NCBI GenBank assembly: GCA_963817915.1
Contig: CAWFQL010000012.1
Coordinates: forward strand, 160,001 to 224,000
DNA length: 64,000 bases
Source: an uncultured candidate division Zixibacteria bacterium
Lineage (GTDB): Bacteria > Zixibacteria > MSB-5A5 > UBA10806
Reading direction: 5' to 3'
Made by a program: the position numbers and the translations under genes. Below, piece by piece: positions 3,070 through 32,732 of this stretch. Below the pieces are notes generated by a model. It was not told the origin of the DNA, made no database searches, and worked only from the letters and a program-made list of their open reading frames with translations. Positions within the stretch are counted from its first letter, which is position 1; every line of letters starts with the position of its first letter.

Positions 3070-6000
3070 ATGAAAAAAATGCTGATGTTTGTCATTATTA
3101 TATTGATGGTTGTCCCCTGCTTGTTAGAGGCAGACGAAATCAATGGGCAGAAATCAAATGAGGGAAATACCCCAGGTATTTTGTCCTCCAATGCCCCAAA
3201 AGATGCTCAAAATATTACGTTAGGCGGCGGCCCCGATGCTTTTGGATACATTTGGAAGGATTCGAACGACCCCGGCGGCCCCGTATTTAATTGGGTCGAT
3301 ATCACCACCGTCGGAACAGAAATCACCCCCTGGCCGAACGGCACAGTCGACGATGGCTATACAAATCCAATTCCCATGGGAATGACATTTAATTTCTATG
3401 GGATTGATTACACCGACATTACAGTCTCCACCAATGGGTGGGTATCATTTCTGGCTCAGACCAATTCCTATCTAACTAATGTTTCTATACCAGCCTCTGC
3501 AAATCCAAATGGCCTCCTGGCTGTTGAATGGGACGATTTGGACGGTGGAACGGTAGGCCATTGCTATTATTACTATGATTCGGCGCAGAACCAATTTATC
3601 GTTTCATGGGTAAATTGGCCGTATTACCCGGATCCTCTTAACCCCCATGATTTTCAGGTAATCTTAAATGGCGCTGACAATTCCGTCATTTATCAATATG
3701 GTACCGGGACGTTCCGCGCGTTTTCGACTGTAGGAATTGAAAATGAAACTGGTATTATTGGTCTGCAGGTTGCCTATAATCAGGCTTACCTTACAAATAA
3801 TCTTGCGATCAAATTATTGGTCCCACCGGTATACGCCCATGATACCGCTCCCTTGCGCTTTACTGGATTACCTCAGGCAGGCTCAGTTGGTGTGCCGATC
3901 AACCCTGAAGCCTACTTCATTAATCTTGGCTCCAATGCTGAAAATAACGTCCCGGTTCGATTAGTAATTACTCCCGGAACATATAATTCCGTTCAGAATA
4001 TCCCGACTTTGGCTTCCGGGGATTCCACTATCGTGACATTTTCCACTTTTACTCCGACAACCAGCGGAATTTATACGCTGACCGCAATTTCCGAATTGCC
4101 TGGAGATGCCGATAGGACCAACGATACCATACGCGCCTCTATCATCATTTACGATACGATAATGGATTTCGAATCCAATTCTGGCGGTTTTCCTGGTACC
4201 GGAGATTGGCAGTGGGGTACTCCCACATCGGGACCGAATGCCGCATTTTCCGGAGTCAATTGCTGGGGAACAAATTTATCCGGCAATTATTCTGCGGGAA
4301 TAAGCACTTTGGAATTCAGTCTAGTCCTTGGTGCTTCAAGCCCGGCGATATCATTCGCTCAATGGTACGATACTGAAAATCTATTTGATGGCTGCAATTT
4401 CTCAATTTCGACCGATCTTGGCGGCACCTGGACAGTAGTATCGCCGATTGGTGGATATGTCGATACAAGTCGTACCGCAAATCCGCTATTCCCAGATTCG
4501 ATTTTCACAGGACACGGCCATACTTCTTGGGAAATTAAGACATTCCCGCTTACAGCCTACGCCGGGCAGACCGTTATGGCTAAATTGGCCTTGGGGGCGG
4601 ATCCTACAGTGTTCTATTCTGGCTGGTACGTTGATGATCTAGGATTAATTGATTGTCAATTTACCTTCCCCAATATTGCAGTTTCACCATCAAATTTGCA
4701 GGGAGCCGCGCTTCCCGGCAATTCAACAATTGTTCCTTTGACTATCTCGAATACTGGTCCTGGCCCGCTTCATTTTAATGCCAGAGCCGCGCAAGATATA
4801 ATTCAACCGCTCTCACCAATCTTTGGATCTGATGGAAATCGCACTTTAGCCTCGCGTCAGGAACCGATAGGCTATCGAACCACAAGCGACAAAGAGGGTG
4901 CCAAGAATAACGCTGAACCATATTATCCTCCGGTGTTAACCGGCTTTGGCGGTCCGGATGCATTTGGATATTATTGGATTGATTCTGATGAACCTCAAGG
5001 GCCGGTATATGGCTGGGTCGATATTTCGACGAATGGTACTGTAATCAATCCCTGGCCGCATGGCACCACGGATGATGGCTATTCAGACCCGATTCCGATG
5101 GGTGGCACATTTAACTTCTATGGAATCGATTATACCGATATTGTAATTTCCACCAACGGCTGGATTTCATTCCTGCCACAGACTTCTGCTGGTTTTTCCA
5201 ACGCCATGATCCCCAATTCCTCAAACCCCAATGCCATTATCGCGGTTGAATGGGACGATCTCTCTGGCAGAACCACGGGGAATTGCTATTACTACTTTGA
5301 TGCGGGCACAAATGAATTCATCGTCTCATGGAATGATTGGGAATACTACGCTTCACCTTACGATCCCCGTAGTTTCCAGGTAATATTAGATATGTCCACC
5401 GGCAGTATACGCTGTCAGTATGGTCTCGCGTCCTACCATACCTCTTCAACAGTCGGAATTGAAAACGATTCAGGGACCGACGGCCTTCAGGTCGCCTATA
5501 ATCAAGCTTATCTTCATGGCGAAATGGCGATTCTTTATACGGCCCCGGTTCAATGGCTTTCAATTGACCCGACATCGGGTTCAATCCCAAGCGGCGGAAG
5601 TCCGGTAACAATCAACGTTACCATGGATGCCTTGAATCTTGCTCAAGGCACTTATACCGGCCGGATAGTAATGGGTAGCAACGATCCGGACAGCGTAACA
5701 TTTGATATCCCCGTGACATTTATTGTAGGAGAAGGTGGACCGCCGCCTGCTCCAGCATTATTGGCTCCCGCCAATGGTTCATCGGTCACCACGGCTACAG
5801 TCCAATTTGACTGGGCTGACGCTCCGACGGCCACAAGATATGTTGTCGAAGTGGCCACCGATGATCTTTTCAATGGCGTCGTCGCGCATGATTCTGCTTT
5901 GACCGCATCTAATTACCAATTTGATTTCCCGACCCTGGGAACATATTTCTGGAGAGTAACTGCGGCCAACGATCAGGGATTCTCGCCGCGAACTGCAGTC

Positions 6001-6354
6001 TGGTCGTTTATTAGAACAACAGGAGGAACGTGCCAGTATGTAGTCGGAGATGCCAACGGCAGCAACACCTTTAACGGCCTTGATGTCACCTATAGTGTGA
6101 ATTACTTCAAGGGTGGAGCTCCCCCGCCGTATTCCTGCGAATGCACTCCCGGCAATACCTGGTTTGTCACAGGCGACGTTAACGGTTCGTGTTCATTCAA
6201 TGGGCTGGATGTTACCTACATGGTCAACTACTTTAAGGGCGGTCCTGCTATTCAGCCTTGTCCCAATTGCCCGCCCGCGCGCGATATCGCTCCCAATCCC
6301 GGGGAAAATATTTCTTCTCACGGGGATGCAAAAATTGGGGGTTCGTCGGAATAG
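3070..6354 (+). CDS. Large secreted multidomain protein: duplicated ~200-aa GGPDAFGY (NIDO-like) domain, Ig/CARDB-like and FN3-like domains, C-terminal Cys-rich dockerin-like module
   Basis: GGAGG RBS and signal peptide. Internal repeat GGPDAFGY..DDGY..PIPMG.TFNFYGIDYTDI..STNGW occurs twice. C-terminus has twin GD(A/V)NGS..FNGLDVTY.VNYFKGG repeats. Confidence 0.85.
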   Translation: MKKMLMFVIIILMVVPCLLEADEINGQKSNEGNTPGILSSNAPKDAQNITLGGGPDAFGYIWKDSNDPGGPVFNWVDITTVGTEITPWPNGTVDDGYTNPIPMGMTFNFYGIDYTDITVSTNGWVSFLAQTNSYLTNVSIPASANPNGLLAVEWDDLDGGTVGHCYYYYDSAQNQFIVSWVNWPYYPDPLNPHDFQVILNGADNSVIYQYGTGTFRAFSTVGIENETGIIGLQVAYNQAYLTNNLAIKLLVPPVYAHDTAPLRFTGLPQAGSVGVPINPEAYFINLGSNAENNVPVRLVITPGTYNSVQNIPTLASGDSTIVTFSTFTPTTSGIYTLTAISELPGDADRTNDTIRASIIIYDTIMDFESNSGGFPGTGDWQWGTPTSGPNAAFSGVNCWGTNLSGNYSAGISTLEFSLVLGASSPAISFAQWYDTENLFDGCNFSISTDLGGTWTVVSPIGGYVDTSRTANPLFPDSIFTGHGHTSWEIKTFPLTAYAGQTVMAKLALGADPTVFYSGWYVDDLGLIDCQFTFPNIAVSPSNLQGAALPGNSTIVPLTISNTGPGPLHFNARAAQDIIQPLSPIFGSDGNRTLASRQEPIGYRTTSDKEGAKNNAEPYYPPVLTGFGGPDAFGYYWIDSDEPQGPVYGWVDISTNGTVINPWPHGTTDDGYSDPIPMGGTFNFYGIDYTDIVISTNGWISFLPQTSAGFSNAMIPNSSNPNAIIAVEWDDLSGRTTGNCYYYFDAGTNEFIVSWNDWEYYASPYDPRSFQVILDMSTGSIRCQYGLASYHTSSTVGIENDSGTDGLQVAYNQAYLHGEMAILYTAPVQWLSIDPTSGSIPSGGSPVTINVTMDALNLAQGTYTGRIVMGSNDPDSVTFDIPVTFIVGEGGPPPAPALLAPANGSSVTTATVQFDWADAPTATRYVVEVATDDLFNGVVAHDSALTASNYQFDFPTLGTYFWRVTAANDQGFSPRTAVWSFIRTTGGTCQYVVGDANGSNTFNGLDVTYSVNYFKGGAPPPYSCECTPGNTWFVTGDVNGSCSFNGLDVTYMVNYFKGGPAIQPCPNCPPARDIAPNPGENISSHGDAKIGGSSE

Positions 6355-6396: not shown

Positions 6397-6433
6397 TCGG
6401 GCTCTTCTTAGGATGAAGGGCCCGATTCTTTTT
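6397..6433 (+). terminator. Rho-independent terminator
   Basis: TCGGGCTCTTC/GAAGGGCCCGA stem followed by TTCTTTTT. Confidence 0.75.
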
Positions 6434-6452: not shown

Positions 6453-6480
6453 TTGACATTAAATGCCAATATGATATATT
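6453..6480 (+). promoter_or_regulatory. Sigma70-type promoter for the selenoprotein gene
   Basis: TTGACA-16 nt-TATATT with extended -10 TG, immediately after the terminator. Confidence 0.5.
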
Positions 6481-6675
6481 TGTATATAGTAGAGCTTGTA
6501 GACGTTGCTGGCTCAATGTACTGTCAAACACTTCTTTTTTTGAATGACTTAACATGACTGGAACGATTTGCTCGAAAATCCCCTCCGCTCAAATCCAGTT
6601 GCTTCATTTAATCGAATGTTTAATAATTGGTAGAATTAGGATAAATCCACAATGGCGCGTCAGGAAGGTACAATT

Positions 6676-8061
6676 ATGAGAAGATTTACAGCGTTGTTAT
6701 TTTTTCTACTGTTTGGTCCAATTTTGATTGGGAATAGCCTGGCTACTCAGCGCATAGTTGTTGCCGAATTATTCACAAATACCGGGTGAAGCTATTGCCC
6801 AGATGCTGATCAGGAATTGGATCAGATAGCAAATGCCCGTCCGAATGATCTCGCCGTAATACGCTACCACGTCAACTGGCCAAGCCCTACAGACCCATAC
6901 TATCAATTTAATATCAGCGAGAATATGGCTAGAAATAACTACTACTCGAACATTTACACTCCGTATATTTATTTCGATGGCAACATAGTGGGAGGATCTT
7001 ATAGTAGCTGGGCCAGTCAAATAAATTCTGAAAGCCAGGTAGCCTCTCCTCTCGATATACAGTTATCGGGGAGCTTGAATTATAATACCAGGCTGGGGAC
7101 TATCGATGTCATGATCATCGCCACTTCAGCTATTAGCTATACCAGCCTGAAGATGCGGCTCGCAATTACCGAATCCAATATTCGCTGGCAAGCCCCCAAC
7201 GGAACATTAAATCATCATCAAACTTTCCGCGATATGGTGCCAAGCACTTCCGGCCAGGCTTTCACTATTGCTCAGGGTGACACCGCTATATTCCATGAAC
7301 CGATTAATCTCAGATCGCCCATGGTACTTTCAAATTGCAGCATTGTAGTGTTCGTGCAATCGGATAACGGCAGCCGGAGAATCCTCCAGGGAGCCAAAAT
7401 CGCGGTGCCGTCATTACAGCGCGTTTATGAGTTGTCGCCATTTTCTCTGGTTGCGCCGCGGAATGATTCAACGCTTTCCACTTGTTATCCTATCTGCACA
7501 TGGCGGCGAAGCAGCGATCCTGATTCGGGGTACGCGATCAACTACGAAGTCCAGATCAGCCTCGACCCTGAGTTCACTAATCCGATTGTTTCGGATCCGC
7601 CATTATCAGATTCGACATGGACTTGTCCATACTGCCTGATGAATGATACGCTCTTTTATTGGCGTGTACGAGCCTTCAACGGCCACGCGCCGGATAAATA
7701 CAGCACTCAGACATATCAATTTCGAATCCATGAAGTCTCATGCCAGTATGTCGCGGGCGATGTCAATGGGAATGGCGTCGCTAATGGTCTCGATGTCACA
7801 TACATGGTAAATTATTTGCGTGGGGGAGTAGCCCCACCAGATACATGCGAGTGCGGAACTAATCCAAATTTTTTGGTGTCATCGGATGCGAATGGCAGTT
7901 GTAGTGTGAATGGCCTCGATGTCACCTATATGGTAAATTTCTACAGGGGAGGCGGCGCACCGATATCATTCTGCACCGATTGCCCGTCCGGTGGCAGATC
8001 GTCCCTACTTTCAACTAAAAGAGAAATCTCTCACCAGCCAGTAAAGCCAAAGATAGAGTAG
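6676..8061 (+). CDS. Secreted Omp28/thioredoxin-like protein with UxxC motif (probable selenoprotein), FN3-like domain and Cys-rich dockerin tail; 461 aa with read-through
   Basis: AGGAAGG RBS, then ATG 6676 and signal peptide MRRFTALLFFLLFGPILIGNSLA, then TQRIVVAELFTNTG-TGA(6787-6789)-SYCP, in frame with track ORF 6817..8061. Confidence 0.85.
6790..6830 (+). promoter_or_regulatory. Putative bacterial SECIS element
   Basis: Directly after the in-frame TGA. Lower stem GCTAT(6791-6795)/ATAGC(6826-6830), upper stem CTGATC(6806-6811)/GATCAG(6820-6825), loop AGGAATTG starting 22 nt after the UGA with G at loop position 2. Confidence 0.7.
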
Positions 8062-8086: not shown

Positions 8087-8121
8087 AGCCGGCGGAAATA
8101 CATTCTGCCGGCTTTCTATTT
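8087..8121 (+). terminator. Rho-independent terminator
   Basis: AGCCGGCGGAA/TTCTGCCGGCT stem with T-rich tail, between convergent genes. Confidence 0.7.
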
Positions 8122-8162
8122 GGGCCAATTATCGGACAAATATAAAATGCTTCTAAAATTAT

Positions 8163-8661
8163 CTAATGCTCTGATTCTTCCGATTCATGCTTCTCATCCG
8201 GTAATGCCAGCGAATCTGATTTCAAAAGCGATTCCTGAACCGGTTTTACTCCCGCGCCATATGTATATACCATCTCTCCGCCAAGGTAGCCGCCAACACT
8301 CACTACGCCAGCCGCGACTACACTTATCCCAAATGCCAACCATCCAAAGCTGCTATAAATCTTCTTGCCAAAGCTCAAACGGAAAATTAGCGAGACAATG
8401 ACAACACTTAAATAAATATACCCCATCGTCTCGTGAGTATCTAAAATTTCTCCTGCGGCTTTCGGCAGCTTTACGGCATCCTCAGTCAAAAGTCCGCTTA
8501 TTACGGCCGCCGCGGCTCCAAGGACTGCAAATACCGTCAAAATGGTACCTGTCAAAATAAATGATTCCTTCTCTGGTAATTATCCCGATAAAATCGCAGG
8601 CAACGATTACGAATATCAATGCTATCGGGAAATGAATAATCATCGGATGAATATTAGGCAT
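8163..8661 (-). CDS. DUF2231-like membrane protein with an apparent +1 frameshift near 8572
   Basis: AGGAG RBS and ATG 8661 give MPNIHPMIIHFPIAL. Removing one base near 8572 joins this to ...SGLLTE..HETMG..GYLGGEMVYTYGAGV. The span is 499 nt (3n+1). Confidence 0.75.
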
Positions 8662-29323: not shown

Positions 29324-30451
29324 TTATATGGCTTTTTCGTAAATTCGATATCTTTTATATATTTTGGCGCCCATATCTGTCGCGGCTTTAGTCATGAGAG
29401 TATTCCGTTCCAGGATCCATGAGAGTTCGCCCCATGTATATCCGCATTCAAGCCCGTATTTGTATGTATCGACAAAAAATATCATATCGAGGCCGATCTT
29501 ATGGTATTTATGAACAATACCCATCGTGATCAATCTAACGCCCGATAATATTTTATTTATCTTTGTGTAATAGAGGAACTTCAACGCCCCTAATGGGAGC
29601 ATGCGGCCGTTCATTTTCTTGAATATCGGATTATAATCGGGCAGCGCTAATGAAAATCCCGCAGGCTCATCATCGACAAAAGCGAGCAAAGCCAACTTGG
29701 GCTCCAATATTTTCTTGAAATCATCGGCGGTTACCTGGAATTCCTCCGGCGTCATCGGTACGAATCCCCAATTTTTGCTCCATGCCGCGTTGTAGATTGT
29801 CCTGATTATCTCAAGCTCACGATCGAAATCGTTCATGTTAATTGAACGGGTTTTAATTCTCTGCCGAGTTCGTATTTTCTCAACTATTTTAAGTATCCTC
29901 TCCGAAGGCATATTATGCTGATCTATATAAAATGCCAACAGGTCCTCGGCTTTTTGAAGTCCCATTTTCTCGCAAAGCCCCTGATAATAAGGCGGATTGT
30001 AGGTCATCATGAATGTCGGGTATTTATCGAAACCATCGATTAAAAAACCTATCTCATCGTTGGTGGAAAAATTCATCGGCCCCCGAATGATATTCATACC
30101 CTCATTTTTTACGAATTTTTCCGCCTCCGCCATCAACGCATTAGCCACATCGAGATCATCGATACAATCCAAAAATCCGAAAAAGCCGGTCTTTTCCTCG
30201 TGAAAGCTATTGTGAAGATCATTGACAATTCCCGCTATTCTGCCGACTGCCTGGCCATCTTTATATGCCAGATAATACGTTGCTCGCGCATGCTGGAAAA
30301 ATGGGTTATGCTTTTTGTCGAAAAACTTTTTTCGTTCTGAAATCAATGGCGGGACATAATACTTTTCATTTTTGTAGAGCCTGAACGGAATCTTGATGAA
30401 TGTCATCAATTCATTGTTGTCTTTTACTTCGCGAATTTCCACAGCGGCCAT
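29324..30451 (-). CDS. GNAT-fold acyltransferase resembling bacterial ceramide synthase (bCerS)
   Basis: YVPPL, GRIAGIVN, GFFGFLDCIDD, RGPMNFSTNDEIGFLIDGF..P.FMMTYNPPYY, AWSKNWGFVP and ELSWILE. Abuts the spt-like gene. Confidence 0.7.
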   Translation of the reverse strand: MAAVEIREVKDNNELMTFIKIPFRLYKNEKYYVPPLISERKKFFDKKHNPFFQHARATYYLAYKDGQAVGRIAGIVNDLHNSFHEEKTGFFGFLDCIDDLDVANALMAEAEKFVKNEGMNIIRGPMNFSTNDEIGFLIDGFDKYPTFMMTYNPPYYQGLCEKMGLQKAEDLLAFYIDQHNMPSERILKIVEKIRTRQRIKTRSINMNDFDRELEIIRTIYNAAWSKNWGFVPMTPEEFQVTADDFKKILEPKLALLAFVDDEPAGFSLALPDYNPIFKKMNGRMLPLGALKFLYYTKINKILSGVRLITMGIVHKYHKIGLDMIFFVDTYKYGLECGYTWGELSWILERNTLMTKAATDMGAKIYKRYRIYEKAI

Positions 30452-31633
30452 CTATATGATCTCCATCTTTTTCCCGATATCATGGAATGTCTGCAAAACC
30501 TTGTCGATTTGGGCATCGGTATGCGTAGCGGTATAGCTGGTGCGGATCAACGCCTGCCCCGGCGGCACCGCCGGCGCGATTATCGGATTTGTGAATAGTC
30601 CCGCCTCGGTCAATGCTTTCCAGAAGGCGAATGTCTTCATGTCATCGCCGATGAATATTGGCACAATGGGAGTTTCCGTGGTGCCGATTTTGTACCCCAT
30701 CGCCTTGAATTCCTTATGCACGCGATGAGTAATTTCCCAGAGTCGTTTGCGCCTTTCAGGTTCTTCCCGCAATATTTTCAAGGTTGCCCTGACTGCGGCC
30801 ACAGCGGCCGGAGGCGGCGACGCTGAGAATATCAAGGCTCGCGAAAAATGCTTCACGTAGCGAATGACATCGTCATCTGCCACTATAAATCCGCCGAGCG
30901 ACGCGAATGATTTCGAAAATGTCCCCATGATAATATCGACTTTATCTTCTAGATGGAAATGCTCCGCGGTGCCGCGTCCATTCTCGCCCAGGACGCCGAT
31001 TGAATGAGCGTCATCTACCATTACCCTGGCTTTGTGTTTCTTGGCGAGATGGGTAATCTCGGGCAACTTGGCAATATCGCCTTCCATCGAAAATACGCCG
31101 TCCGTAATAATAAGCTTACCGCGGGCTCCGTCATTTCGTTCGAGCAGACGGCCAAGCTCATCCATATCATTGTGACGGTATTTCTTGAATTCGCCGAATG
31201 ACAGCCTGCAGCCATCGACTATCGACGCGTGATTTGATCTATCTCCGAAAATATAATCATCTTTTCCTGCTACAGTGGAAATCGTTCCCTGATTGGTTTG
31301 GAAGCCGGTAGAAAAGACCAATGCAGAGTGTCTTCCCATAAAATCCGCAAGTTCTTCTTCCAATTTCACATGTATATCGAGCGTGCCATTGAGAAATCTC
31401 GATCCGGTGCATCCGGAACCGTATTTATCGACCGCGGCATGAATAGCCTCTTTGACCTTCGGATGGTCTGTCAGGCCAAGATAATTATTCGAGCCGATCA
31501 TTATTACTTCCTTCCCCTCGGCAATGACAACTGTGCCGGGGGATGAGGAAATTCGCCTGAAATACGGATACAAACCTGCGGCCTGAATCTCTTTATCGGC
31601 CTGGAAATTTCTGCATTTTTCAAATAAATCCAT
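30452..31633 (-). CDS. spt: Serine palmitoyltransferase (alpha-oxoamine synthase family)
   Basis: GGAG RBS before ATG 31633. GLYPYFR, GSNNYLGLT, GCTGSRFLNGTLDIH and PLP motif GTFSKSFAS; bCerS-like neighbour. Confidence 0.72.
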   Translation of the reverse strand: MDLFEKCRNFQADKEIQAAGLYPYFRRISSSPGTVVIAEGKEVIMIGSNNYLGLTDHPKVKEAIHAAVDKYGSGCTGSRFLNGTLDIHVKLEEELADFMGRHSALVFSTGFQTNQGTISTVAGKDDYIFGDRSNHASIVDGCRLSFGEFKKYRHNDMDELGRLLERNDGARGKLIITDGVFSMEGDIAKLPEITHLAKKHKARVMVDDAHSIGVLGENGRGTAEHFHLEDKVDIIMGTFSKSFASLGGFIVADDDVIRYVKHFSRALIFSASPPPAAVAAVRATLKILREEPERRKRLWEITHRVHKEFKAMGYKIGTTETPIVPIFIGDDMKTFAFWKALTEAGLFTNPIIAPAVPPGQALIRTSYTATHTDAQIDKVLQTFHDIGKKMEII

Positions 31634-31748
31634 CTGGGATCTCCGAATAGTCATAATCAACTTGCTACACGCTGATTTTTCAGCTAATTTACCACCATAA
31701 AAATGAAATTATTCAATGAGCTACAAAATGTCAAGGAGATAAAGGCGA

Positions 31749-32732
31749 ATGGGCACAGCGCTGGTCACAGGGGCTAATGGGTTTGTAGGTTCACATATTT
31801 GTGAGGCCCTGATTGCGTCCGGGTACGAGGTAAAGGCTCTTGTCAGAAAGACTTCCGATCTCACCAATATAAAAAACCTGAATGTCAAATTGGCTTACGG
31901 TGATTTGAACCAGCCGGAAACGCTGCCCGATGCTCTTCAAGGCGTAGATTTTGTCATTAATAACGCCGGCCTTACAAAAACCCTCGACAATTCACAATTC
32001 ATCCAGGTCAATGCTATCGGCACCAGAAATATCCTGCAGGCGATTCAAAACCATGCGCCTAATATCAAACGGTTCGTGCTGATTTCATCTACGGCGGCAA
32101 GCGGCCCGTCATCATCGATGACCCCGATCACAGAAGACCATGACCCCGGCCCTCTCACATTTTACGGCAAATCGAAATTACAGGGCGAGAAAGAAGCCCT
32201 GTCATTCAATTCGATAATCCCCATTACTATTCTAAGACCATCTGCAATCTATGGCCCGCGCGATAAAGAGATGCTTTCATTCTTTAAAGCCGTCAAGGGT
32301 AAGCTGAAGCCGACATTCGGATACGGCGATAGCTATATTAACTTTACCTATGTAAAAGATCTGGCCGGGGCAGTAGTCAAATCACTTTCAGTCAATACGC
32401 CATCCGGTGAGATATTTTTCGTTACGGAGAAAAAGGCCTATTCCTACAGCCAGGCAGGTGATATAGTGGCTGAAATTTTCGGCGTTAAAGCCTATGATCT
32501 GCATATTCCTCTATGGCTGATCTCCAGCGGCGGGAAAATATCCGAGATTATTTCCAAAATAAAAAACGAGGCTTCCATATTAACTTATGACAAGGCCAAA
32601 GAATTCCGGGCCAAATATTGGCTGGTCGATTCATCCAAATTGGAAAAGCAGCTTGGATTTGTCTGCCCGACAGATTTCAAATCCGGATCAATCGAAACCA
32701 TCGAATGGTACCGCAAGCTGGGGATGCTATAA
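31749..32732 (+). CDS. NAD-dependent epimerase/dehydratase (extended SDR), candidate ceramide reductase
   Basis: TGANGFVG, NNAGLTK, YGKSK and RPSAIYGPRD; divergent from spt. Confidence 0.8.
   Translation: MGTALVTGANGFVGSHICEALIASGYEVKALVRKTSDLTNIKNLNVKLAYGDLNQPETLPDALQGVDFVINNAGLTKTLDNSQFIQVNAIGTRNILQAIQNHAPNIKRFVLISSTAASGPSSSMTPITEDHDPGPLTFYGKSKLQGEKEALSFNSIIPITILRPSAIYGPRDKEMLSFFKAVKGKLKPTFGYGDSYINFTYVKDLAGAVVKSLSVNTPSGEIFFVTEKKAYSYSQAGDIVAEIFGVKAYDLHIPLWLISSGGKISEIISKIKNEASILTYDKAKEFRAKYWLVDSSKLEKQLGFVCPTDFKSGSIETIEWYRKLGML

What the first reader, a model, noticed from the sequence alone, without database searches (positions are those of the whole stretch)
6676..8061. Hidden secreted selenoprotein: Omp28/thioredoxin-like UxxC domain fused to a dockerin tail
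Seen: the ORF track starts at 6817, but an RBS-led ATG at 6676 encodes a signal peptide and ELFTNTG-[TGA 6787]-SYCP in the same frame. The TGA occupies the first Cys position of the Omp28/thioredoxin-type E.FT..(W/G)CxxCP motif. It is followed by a hairpin (CTGATC/GATCAG plus GCTAT/ATAGC; loop 22 nt downstream with G at position 2) fitting the bacterial SECIS model. TGA is a normal stop elsewhere in the window, and the other lesions here are indels, not substitutions. Inference: an exported, probably surface-docked selenium redox protein that standard annotation truncates. This domain combination may be undescribed.
Basis: partly seen in the sequence, partly recalled or inferred. Interest (0 to 1): 0.88.

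Follow-up and report, generated by a model that had tools for sequence, protein, structure and literature searches.

The report
Exported thioredoxin-like selenoprotein gene, cut short
The "stop" codon inside this gene most likely encodes selenocysteine in the active site of an exported thioredoxin-like protein with a dockerin tail; gene callers cut it short, but this kind of selenoprotein was first predicted in 2008, and this copy's RNA signal is unusually degraded.

Summary
ATG 6676 (RBS AGGAAGG) opens a 461-codon frame to 8061 with a single in-frame TGA at 6787-6789, giving ELFTNTG-U-SYCP. The public gene call starts at TTG 6817. The genome has selB-selA-selD-tRNA-Sec in one cluster. In 69 family N-termini from 28 genomes, 46 have TGA and 23 have Cys in this same column, and the sequence upstream of the TGA is conserved as protein.

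Sec copies carry a conserved hairpin with compensatory changes; Cys copies mostly lack it. An AlphaFold model (pLDDT 91) shows a thioredoxin fold with UxxC at the helix cap, then a beta-sandwich, an FN3-like domain and a dockerin. The best structural matches are P. gingivalis HBP35, a surface thiol reductase, and DUF1223 protein Atu2684.

Caveat: this copy keeps the stem (CUGAUC/GAUCAG) but its loop reads GGAA. All 35 other class-A Sec copies read GGUC. It still meets the generic bacterial SECIS model, and the protein keeps every family-invariant residue.

Novelty is low. It is a distant relative of the curated "Omp28-related selenoprotein" (NF045500, which is GOS_C of 2008), scoring 53 bits against a cut-off of 200. 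This scan has found similar genes in other genomes. Docking to a cohesin is unproven.

The parts
6453..6480 (+). sigma-70-like promoter candidate (TTGACA-16-TATATT, 11 of 12, TG extension)
   Evidence: a consensus match only. A terminator-like hairpin at 6397-6425 separates it from the upstream gene.
6662..6668 (+). ribosome-binding site AGGAAGG, 7 nt before the ATG
   Evidence: read directly
6676..8061 (+). full coding sequence: 461 codons plus TAG, read with TGA 6787 as Sec
   Evidence: orthologues align over residues 1-444
6676..6744 (+). signal peptide (residues 1-23: RR n-region, hydrophobic core, ...NSLA then TQR). There is no lipobox Cys.
   Evidence: read; the same layout is conserved in orthologues; no signal-peptide predictor was run
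6787..6789 (+). in-frame TGA, the proposed Sec codon (U38)
6787..6798 (+). U-S-Y-C redox motif at the N-cap of helix 41-54
6791..6830 (+). SECIS-like hairpin: lower stem 6791-6795/6826-6830, upper stem 6806-6811/6820-6825, loop AGGAAUUG 6812-6819
   Evidence: It is the best hit in the window to the family hairpin model (21.4 bits, E about 6e-4), but the loop deviates from the family GGUC.
6745..7041 (+). thioredoxin-like domain (residues about 24-122)
7042..7416 (+). beta-sandwich domain of the Omp28/DUF1223/HBP35 type (residues about 123-247)
7438..7731 (+). FN3-like beta domain with four Cys (residues about 255-352)
   Evidence: the same module is found in the upstream gene (G000:C12:165755-166279 matches residues 257-439)
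7747..7950 (+). dockerin-like module (residues about 358-425): two repeats, each a D-x-N-x-(N/S)-...-D loop followed by a helix
   Evidence: Pfam Dockerin_1 28.1 bits against cut-off 22.9; helices 371-381 and 413-423; weak matches to solved dockerins
7951..8058 (+). C-terminal tail, predicted disordered from residue 446
8087..8122 (+). intrinsic-terminator-like hairpin plus T-rich tail

Best explanation
The window's 6676-8061 is one gene for an exported thioredoxin-fold oxidoreductase of the Omp28/DUF1223/HBP35 superfamily. Its attacking active-site residue is selenocysteine (U38-S-Y-C41).

Proposed mechanism:
1. The ribosome reaches UGA 6787. SelB carrying Sec-tRNA(Sec) is recruited by the hairpin at 6791-6830, and Sec is inserted (inferred).
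2. The N-terminal signal peptide sends the protein through the Sec translocon (inferred from sequence).
3. The UxxC pair sits at the N-cap of helix alpha-1 of the thioredoxin fold (shown in the model). It exchanges selenenylsulfide/disulfide bonds with envelope or extracellular substrates, as shown experimentally for the Cys-Cys site of the structural relative HBP35 (inferred by analogy).
4. The FN3-like spacer and the calcium-loop dockerin-like module tether the enzyme to a partner on the cell surface (inferred; the partner is unknown).

Gene callers stop at the TGA and restart at TTG 6817, which loses the signal peptide and the active site. This copy's SECIS loop has drifted from the family consensus, so decoding here may be less efficient than in its relatives.
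For: - Sec/Cys pairing: 16 best matches in other genomes include 14 with exactly one TGA. In 69 N-termini from 28 genomes, 46 have TGA and 23 have Cys in the same column. The flanking A[ST][QE]R[IVM]VV.E..TN sequence is conserved upstream of the TGA.
- Sec and Cys forms interchange at least 10 times on the family tree.
- RNA signal in the family: Sec copies have a mean best stem of 8.2 bp and z -1.91; Cys copies have 5.5 bp and z -0.08 (relatives are not independent). In the 34-sequence class-A alignment, 94.1% of cells are paired against at most 37.6% when the partner is slid. Three pairs show compensatory changes (8 cells), and 0 of 500 shuffles reach this.
- The window hairpin keeps the stem. 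It is the top hit in 64 kb to a model built without it (21.4 bits, E about 6e-4). It meets all four generic bSECIS constraints quoted in PMC13188914.
- Machinery: selB, selA, selD (itself with a TGA) and tRNA-Sec lie at G000:C6:198041-202492, all above their cut-offs.
- TGA is a normal stop in the window.
- Fold: pLDDT is 91.3, with UxxC at residues 38-41 between strand 28-34 and helix 41-54. Foldseek finds HBP35 (5y1a, E 2.3e-14) and Atu2684 (2axo, E 5.8e-11). The family profile aligns its motif to ELFTSQGCASCPPAD of 2axo.
- HBP35 reduces insulin through C48/C51 and is surface-exposed (PMC2907840, passages read).
- Integrity: there is no other stop in 461 codons, and the protein keeps all 9 invariant and the listed near-invariant family residues.
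Against: - The window loop reads GGAA where 33 of 33 other class-A copies and two further copies read GGUC. The pair closing the loop is also broken (A.G).
- The window hairpin is among the weakest of the Sec copies: 6 bp, z -0.26, against a Sec mean of -1.91.
- The family hairpin model gives it 21.4 bits. Ten Sec copies score 38-48 bits, two further Sec copies score 22.9-27.8, and Cys-form sites score 10-34.
- The own genome's other probable Sec genes show G-U in their loops: selD GGUCC, the paralogue GGUCUU, and a Trx-like gene CGUGA.
- No other hairpin of at least 4 bp with a G-U-bearing loop lies within 140 nt.
- The window copy has a rather long terminal branch (0.71).
- The evidence comes from a single metagenome-type assembly (93.9% complete, 2.7% contamination).
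- There is no direct evidence of selenium incorporation, export or docking.
Confidence: 0.7

Rival explanations
1. Decaying copy. The gene descends from a genuine selenoprotein gene, but loss of the GGUC loop has crippled SelB recruitment. UGA 6787 then mostly terminates, leaving a 37-residue peptide, and the rest is silent or on its way to becoming a pseudogene.
For: - The loop is GGAA where 35 of 35 other class-A copies have GGUC.
- The closing pair is lost.
- The hairpin scores 21.4 bits, within the range of Cys-form sites.
- Its z-score is -0.26.
- The terminal branch is long (0.71).
- A paralogue with a canonical hairpin exists in the same genome.
Against: - There are 423 codons after the TGA without a stop or frameshift.
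- All family-invariant residues are kept.
- The loop differs at four positions while the protein stayed conserved, which argues that the altered hairpin was tolerated for some time (inference).
- The generic bSECIS constraints are still met.
- The stem is intact.
Confidence: 0.2
2. UGA 6787 is read through without selenium, for example by near-cognate Trp or Cys insertion. The product would be a low-level non-Sec protein.
For: The SECIS loop is weak. No direct evidence bears on this.
Against: The genome has a full Sec system. The column is Sec or Cys in all 69 family members examined, so a redox-active residue is required there. Trp would destroy the site.
Confidence: 0.04
3. Sequencing or assembly error: the true codon is TGC or TGT, and this is an ordinary CxxC protein.
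For: It is a single assembly of low-coverage type.
Against: The same column is TGA in 45 other family copies from independent assemblies, including 14 of the 16 best orthologue matches. The clade holding the window copy is 14 Sec to 1 Cys. The hairpin stem is retained.
Confidence: 0.03
4. The annotated 414-aa ORF from TTG 6817 is the real, cytoplasmic product, and the upstream frame is non-coding.
For: The gene caller's output.
Against: The signal peptide, the ATQRIVVAELFTNTG block and the xxC after the TGA are conserved as protein across 28 genomes. The truncated product would lack strand 1 and the active site of the thioredoxin fold. There is a good RBS at 6662-6668 but none obvious before 6817.
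Confidence: 0.03

Closest known systems
NCBIfam NF045500 'Omp28-related selenoprotein'. Table 1 of review PMC13188914 equates it with 'Hypothetical protein GOS_C' of Zhang & Gladyshev 2008 (PMC2398784).
   Same: Both have an exported Trx-like fold with a UxxC motif, Sec/Cys homologue pairs, a bacterial SECIS directly after the UGA, and unknown function. The window protein aligns to model positions 37-271.
   Different: The window protein scores 53.3 bits against a cut-off of 200. No genome of 121 sampled in this phylum reaches the cut-off. Model positions 272-375 match T9SS-type C-terminal domains in many proteins, whereas the window protein has an FN3-like domain plus a dockerin-like module.
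HBP35 of Porphyromonas gingivalis (PDB 5y1a)
   Same: It is the best structural match (Foldseek E 2.3e-14, TM on target 0.62). It has an N-terminal Trx-like domain with a CxxC motif, a beta domain and a C-terminal surface-anchoring module. The recombinant protein reduces insulin through C48/C51 and complements E. coli dsbA (PMC2907840, passages).
   Different: Sequence identity is 11%. HBP35 is a Cys-Cys protein, not Sec. It is anchored through a T9SS CTD and A-LPS. Its haem binding has not been examined for the window protein.
DUF1223 (PF06764), Atu2684 of Agrobacterium (PDB 2axo)
   Same: Pfam score is 41.4 bits against cut-off 30.7 over residues 29-228. Foldseek gives E 5.8e-11 and TM on target 0.67. 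The ELFTxxGCxxCPxAD motif aligns.
   Different: It is a Cys form with no FN3 or dockerin modules, and its function is uncharacterised.
Omp28 (PF11551; NF033782 Omp28 family outer-membrane lipoprotein)
   Same: Pfam score is 56.6 bits against cut-off 34.9 over residues 85-244.
   Different: NF033782 scores 62 bits against a cut-off of 150. The signal peptide has no lipobox Cys, so this is not a lipoprotein.
Type I dockerin of cellulosomal enzymes (PF00404)
   Same: Two tandem calcium-loop-plus-helix repeats. The Pfam score is 28.1 against cut-off 22.9.
   Different: It is a Cys-rich variant shared by dozens of proteins of this genome. It sits on a redox enzyme rather than a glycoside hydrolase. 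The cohesin partner is not identified; only weak cohesin-like modules were found.

Membership tests
Bacterial selenoprotein gene (SelB/SECIS-dependent UGA decoding) | The in-frame UGA aligns with Cys in homologues | tested here: met
   46 TGA and 23 Cys in the same column of 69 N-termini from 28 genomes
Bacterial selenoprotein gene (SelB/SECIS-dependent UGA decoding) | Protein-level conservation on both sides of the UGA | tested here: met
   The signal peptide and the ...R.VV.E..TN.. block are conserved upstream, and xxC..AD..LDQ...IRYH downstream
Bacterial selenoprotein gene (SelB/SECIS-dependent UGA decoding) | A hairpin meeting the generic bSECIS model: loop 3-9 nt, stem 4-16 bp, G in the first two loop positions, 16-37 nt from the UGA, MFE at or below -7.5 | tested here: met
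   Loop of 8 nt (AGGAAUUG), 6-bp upper stem, 22-nt spacing, MFE -10.9. The criteria were read in PMC13188914.
Bacterial selenoprotein gene (SelB/SECIS-dependent UGA decoding) | The family's own SECIS signature (GGUC apical loop closed by U-A and G.U) | tested here: not met
   The window has GGAA and an unpaired A.G. GGUC is invariant in 33 of 33 others and in 2 more copies. The model scores 21.4 bits against 38-48 for most Sec copies.
Bacterial selenoprotein gene (SelB/SECIS-dependent UGA decoding) | selA, selB, selC and selD present in the genome | tested here: met
   All four are above their cut-offs and clustered at G000:C6:198041-202492
Bacterial selenoprotein gene (SelB/SECIS-dependent UGA decoding) | Selenium is actually incorporated at the UGA | not testable with these tools
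   Needs 75Se labelling or mass spectrometry
NCBIfam NF045500 Omp28-related selenoprotein (GOS_C) | Score at or above the curated cut-off (200 bits) | tested here: not met
   53.3 bits, and 47 bits by genome search. This makes it a distant relative, not a member.
Pfam Omp28 (PF11551) / DUF1223 (PF06764) | Score at or above the gathering threshold | tested here: met
   56.6 against 34.9, and 41.4 against 30.7
NF033782 Omp28 family outer-membrane lipoprotein | Curated cut-off (150 bits) and a lipobox Cys | tested here: not met
   62 bits. There is no Cys in residues 1-37.
Thioredoxin-fold thiol-disulfide oxidoreductase | Beta-alpha-beta core with CxxC/UxxC at the N-terminus of helix 1 | tested here: met
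   Model pLDDT 91.3: strand 28-34, U38..C41, helix 41-54, strand 59-65. Structural matches are HBP35 and 2axo.
Thioredoxin-fold thiol-disulfide oxidoreductase | Catalytic disulfide reduction or oxidation | not testable with these tools
   Shown only for HBP35 (PMC2907840)
Dockerin type I (PF00404) | Pfam gathering threshold and the duplicated calcium-binding loop-helix | tested here: met
   28.1 against 22.9. The loops DVNGNGVANGLD and DANGSCSVNGLD are each followed by a helix.
Dockerin type I (PF00404) | Calcium-dependent binding to a cohesin | not testable with these tools
   Needs a binding assay. Candidate cohesin-like modules exist in the genome.

The most novel reading that the evidence does not exclude
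The bacterium and its relatives build a cohesin-dockerin surface assembly. T9SS-anchored proteins with cohesin-like modules (G000:C18:8205-10424 and 30268-32400) would act as scaffolds. The assembly would include a selenocysteine thiol oxidoreductase, making an extracellular 'redox-some'. In addition, this copy would show that the lineage's SelB can use a SECIS loop without the otherwise invariant G-U.
Probability: 0.1. Interest if true: 0.6.

Novelty: new member of a known kind. Interest (0 to 1): 0.33.

Why it matters
- Annotation. A whole clade of exported UxxC proteins is systematically truncated in public gene calls and named only 'Omp28-related outer membrane protein'. The closest named database proteins are from Zixibacteria MAGs. 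The curated selenoprotein model does not reach this clade: 0 of 121 genomes are over its cut-off. Correcting this adds one or more selenoproteins per genome.
- Biology. The family links selenium use to the cell surface in uncultured anaerobes. HBP35 offers a testable model for its function.
- SelB recognition. The family offers a natural series for studying SelB-SECIS recognition: canonical GGUC hairpins; a Sec/Cys sister pair whose loops differ as GGUC and GAUC; and this copy with GGAA.

Tried and rejected
- Reads. The look-up of sequencing runs listed 5 runs, none on record as RNA and all with small shares. Laying X1-X3 gave three short contigs covering 6589-6739, 7098-7300 and 7200-7300. 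None covers 6787, so there is no read-level check of the TGA and no statement on expression.
- Docking. Complex prediction of the dockerin-like part (residues 352-432) with the 184-aa cohesin-like protein of G000:C11:106800-107351 gave no verdict (scores 0.21 and 0.10, mark 0.34). It says nothing either way.
- Rfam. No family matched 6600-6950 at E up to 1.
- Genome scans. A naive genome-wide scan for UxxC/CxxU around in-frame TGA gave 369 candidates, almost all noise. A codon-usage filter reduced 6631 sites to 250, from which only a handful of plausible selenoprotein genes were picked by eye. This is not a complete selenoproteome.
- Alternative SECIS. No other hairpin of at least 4 bp with a G-U loop lies within 140 nt after the UGA.
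- Literature. There were 0 papers for 'Omp28' + 'selenoprotein', 0 for 'DUF1223' + 'selenocysteine' and 0 for 'Zixibacteria' + 'dockerin'. 'Zixibacteria' + 'selenoprotein' gave 2 papers; the one listed mentions the phylum only as a recovered bin.
- Extraction gaps. The regex extraction of N-termini gave no row for 6 fetched loci (L065, L072, L075, L077, L078, L090). It also missed at least three Sec copies later seen with the RNA model (L046:339-368, L047:900-929, L048:844-873), so 69 is not exhaustive. Two short rows of L050 were dropped from the tree.
- Failed call. One search failed because one item was an untranslated locus. It was repeated without that item.
- Earlier findings. The look-up by place found no earlier findings near this place.
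Full report
**What is in the sequence**

ATG 6676 is preceded by AGGAAGG (6662-6668). It opens a frame that runs to TAG 8059-8061 with a single internal stop, TGA 6787-6789. Read through, the frame gives a 461-residue protein. It begins with a typical signal peptide (MRRFTALLFFLLFGPILIGNSLA, no lipobox Cys), followed by TQRIVVAELFTNTG-U-SYCPDAD. The table-11 ORF list and the public protein for this locus (P0002, 414 aa) both start at TTG 6817, just after the motif.

GCUAU pairs with AUAGC and CUGAUC pairs with GAUCAG around an 8-nt loop, AGGAAUUG, that starts 22 nt after the UGA. On its own it is not better than shuffled sequence (z -1.05 for 71 nt; z about 0 for 57-63 nt).

TGA ends 20 of 54 long ORFs in the window, so there is no global recoding. 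The gene looks like its own transcription unit. A terminator-like hairpin lies at 6397-6425, a strong promoter-like site at 6453-6480, and another terminator-like hairpin at 8087-8113.

**Is the TGA coding?**

The genome (G000, 22 contigs, 93.9% complete) carries selB, selA, selD (itself with one TGA) and tRNA-Sec side by side at C6:198041-202492. All four are above their curated cut-offs.

A search of 41 genomes (own plus 40 relatives) with the read-through protein found matches in 36. Of the 16 best matches in other genomes, 14 contain exactly one TGA. One starts at a contig end beyond the site, and one has none.

I extracted N-termini from the fetched loci with a regular expression. This gave 69 family copies from 28 genomes: 46 with TGA and 23 with Cys in exactly the same column. 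The signal peptide and the ...R.VV.E..TN.. block before it are conserved as protein. Six fetched loci gave no row and at least three Sec copies were missed, so this count is not exhaustive.

On a maximum-likelihood tree of 67 of these rows, well-supported branches force at least 10 Sec/Cys changes. The window copy lies in a clade of 14 Sec and 1 Cys, on a rather long terminal branch of 0.71. Most predicted proteins of the family in the public collection begin just after the motif, which is the same truncation.

**The RNA signal**

Sec copies fold much better downstream of the codon than Cys copies. Mean best stem is 8.2 bp against 5.5 bp, and mean z is -1.91 against -0.08 (Mann-Whitney p about 1e-8). 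Relatives are not independent, so the p-value overstates the case.

Two hairpin types occur:
- Class A starts 18 nt after the U of UGA, with consensus GCUGAUCUG-GUCU-UAGAUCAGC. This puts GGUC at the tip, as in the E. coli and Moorella SECIS elements as I recall them.
- Class B starts at +30, with CUCGAUC-AGUU-GAUCGAG.

In the 34-sequence class-A alignment, 94.1% of cells pair, against at most 37.6% when the 3' partner is slid. Three pairs show changes on both sides (8 cells), and no shuffle of 500 reaches the observed covariation. Synonymous positions of the codons that encode the hairpin (A-D-L-V-L-D-Q) are nearly frozen in Sec copies but vary in Cys copies. The family therefore has a real SECIS.

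**The oddity of this copy**

The window keeps the six-pair stem. Its loop reads GGAA where all 33 other class-A copies read GGUC, as do two further Sec copies found later. The U-A pair that closes the loop is replaced by A.G. At the protein level, L-V-L has become Q-E-L.

A covariance model built without the window ranks 6801-6830 first in the 64-kb window (21.4 bits, E about 6e-4). Ten Sec copies score 38-48 bits and two others score 22.9-27.8. Cys-form sites score 10-34 bits.

Other probable Sec genes of the same genome also show G-U in their loops: selD has GGUCC, the Omp28-like paralogue has GGUCUU, and a Trx-like WUGAC protein has CGUGA. No alternative hairpin lies within 140 nt.

Against decay, the hairpin still satisfies every constraint of the published generic bacterial SECIS model: 3-9 nt loop, 4-16 bp stem, G in the first two loop positions (mostly G[G|U]), 16-37 nt spacing, and MFE at or below -7.5 (PMC13188914, passages read). 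The 423 codons after the TGA are intact, and the protein retains all 9 invariant and the listed near-invariant family residues. The loop differs at four positions while the protein stayed conserved, which suggests the change has been tolerated (inference).

I put about 0.7 on Sec decoding of this copy and about 0.2 on a crippled copy.

**What the protein is**

Pfam gives three hits above their thresholds:
- Omp28: 56.6 bits, residues 85-244.
- DUF1223: 41.4 bits, residues 29-228.
- Dockerin_1: 28.1 bits, residues 360-419.

An AlphaFold2 model from a 64-sequence alignment has mean pLDDT 91.3. Its layout is:
- A thioredoxin fold: strand 28-34, U38-x-x-C41 at the N-cap of helix 41-54, strand 59-65, and so on.
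- A beta-sandwich at 126-243.
- An FN3-like domain at 258-351.
- Two loop-helix repeats at 360-425.
- A disordered tail from residue 446.

Foldseek against the PDB ranks HBP35 of P. gingivalis first (5y1a, E 2.3e-14) and the DUF1223 protein Atu2684 second (2axo, E 5.8e-11), followed by FN3 pairs. The family profile aligns its motif to ELFTSQGCASCPPAD of 2axo.

HBP35 is a surface protein. Its recombinant form reduces insulin faster than E. coli thioredoxin, loses that activity in the C48S/C51S mutant, complements E. coli dsbA, and reaches the surface through its C-terminal domain (PMC2907840, passages read). By analogy, the window protein is an exported thiol-disulfide oxidoreductase whose attacking residue is Sec.

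**The tail**

The FN3-like plus dockerin-like cassette is shared with the upstream gene (3070-6354, which has MAM, NIDO and CARDB matches) and with dozens of other proteins of the genome. There are 30 Dockerin_1 matches, plus many hits to residues 354-443.

Eight orthologues in relatives align through the dockerin region and carry the TGA. Other family members end instead in T9SS-type or CarboxypepD_reg-type domains. The anchoring module is therefore interchangeable.

Cohesin matches in the genome are weak (best 26.2 bits). They include two T9SS-tailed proteins with cohesin-like modules and a small secreted cohesin-like protein next to a dockerin-tailed gene. Docking remains a hypothesis.

**Comparison with what is known**

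NCBIfam already holds 'Omp28-related selenoprotein' (NF045500). A 2026 review lists that accession as 'Hypothetical protein GOS_C', UxxC (PMC13188914, table passage). GOS_C was predicted in 2008 from 74 Sec sequences and 312 Cys homologues in ocean metagenomes. It was noted then as a Trx-like fold of unknown function (PMC2398784, passages).

The window protein scores only 53.3 bits against the 200-bit cut-off. None of 121 sampled genomes of the phylum reaches the cut-off. It is therefore a distant, unflagged relative rather than a member.

My searches found no paper on Omp28 or DUF1223 selenoproteins by those names, nor on dockerins in Zixibacteria.

After I had reached this reading, a look-up showed that this scan has reported similar hidden Omp28-like selenoproteins in at least eight other genomes, some with FN3-dockerin tails. 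Those notes agree with my reading but are not independent evidence.

**Verdict**

This is a real feature with a truncated annotation. It is a new member, with a different anchoring module, of a known kind of selenoprotein. Interest is modest. The most useful new detail is that this copy's SECIS has lost the GGUC loop that is invariant in all the other class-A copies.

Noticed in passing
window 3070-6354 (+): A 1094-aa secreted protein with a duplicated N-terminal module and InhA-like MAM, NIDO and CARDB matches. It ends in the same FN3-like plus Cys-rich dockerin-like cassette as the finding (42% identity to residues 257-439).
   Followed up: partly
G000:C12:569640-570440 (-), outside the window; locus L022: A second Omp28-like UxxC gene with an in-frame TGA (TSTT-U-PNCP), a T9SS-type C-terminal domain and a canonical hairpin (GCCGAUCUG-GUCU-UAGAUCGGU). 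Its stem carries a compensatory U-A to C-G change relative to its relatives.
   Followed up: partly
G000:C6:198041-202492 (-): selB, selA, selD and tRNA-Sec lie contiguously. selD itself has an in-frame TGA (a Sec-containing SelD), followed by a CGCUCAGGUCCUGAGCG hairpin.
   Followed up: partly
G000:C6, TGA at about 121116-121118 (-): A 394-aa signal-peptide protein with a thioredoxin-like AVW-U-GAC motif and a downstream hairpin with loop CGUGA. It is a candidate further selenoprotein.
   Followed up: no
G000:C12, TGA at about 84625-84627 (-); G000:C5:29966-29968 (+): Two DUF1573-like proteins with KPG-U-GCT. DUF1573 selenoproteins (UGC) are listed in the 2026 review table. GGUC- or GGUG-loop hairpins lie unusually far (about 40-55 nt) after the UGA.
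   Followed up: no
G000:C18:8205-10424 and C18:30268-32400 (+); G000:C11:104724-107351 (+): Two proteins combine weak cohesin-like modules, a classical dockerin and a T9SS-type C-terminal domain, which is a scaffoldin-like layout. Separately, a small secreted cohesin-like protein is encoded directly after an LVIVD-repeat protein with the Cys-rich dockerin tail.
   Followed up: partly
relatives: G013:C1:794160-798639; G023:C360:10353-13552; G034:C27:11529-16066: Tandem arrays of three to five Omp28-like genes, most with the TGA and some with Cys. The family expands locally and flips between Sec and Cys.
   Followed up: partly
L047:2122-2184 (-) versus L048:2062-2124 (-): Sister genes in two genomes of one genus differ as Cys and Sec. 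The Cys copy keeps the whole hairpin stem, but its loop reads GAUC instead of GGUC. This may be a snapshot of a recent Sec/Cys switch.
   Followed up: partly
window 8163-8661 (-): A DUF2231 membrane-protein gene appears split into overlapping ORFs (8482-8661 and 8163-8555).
   Followed up: no
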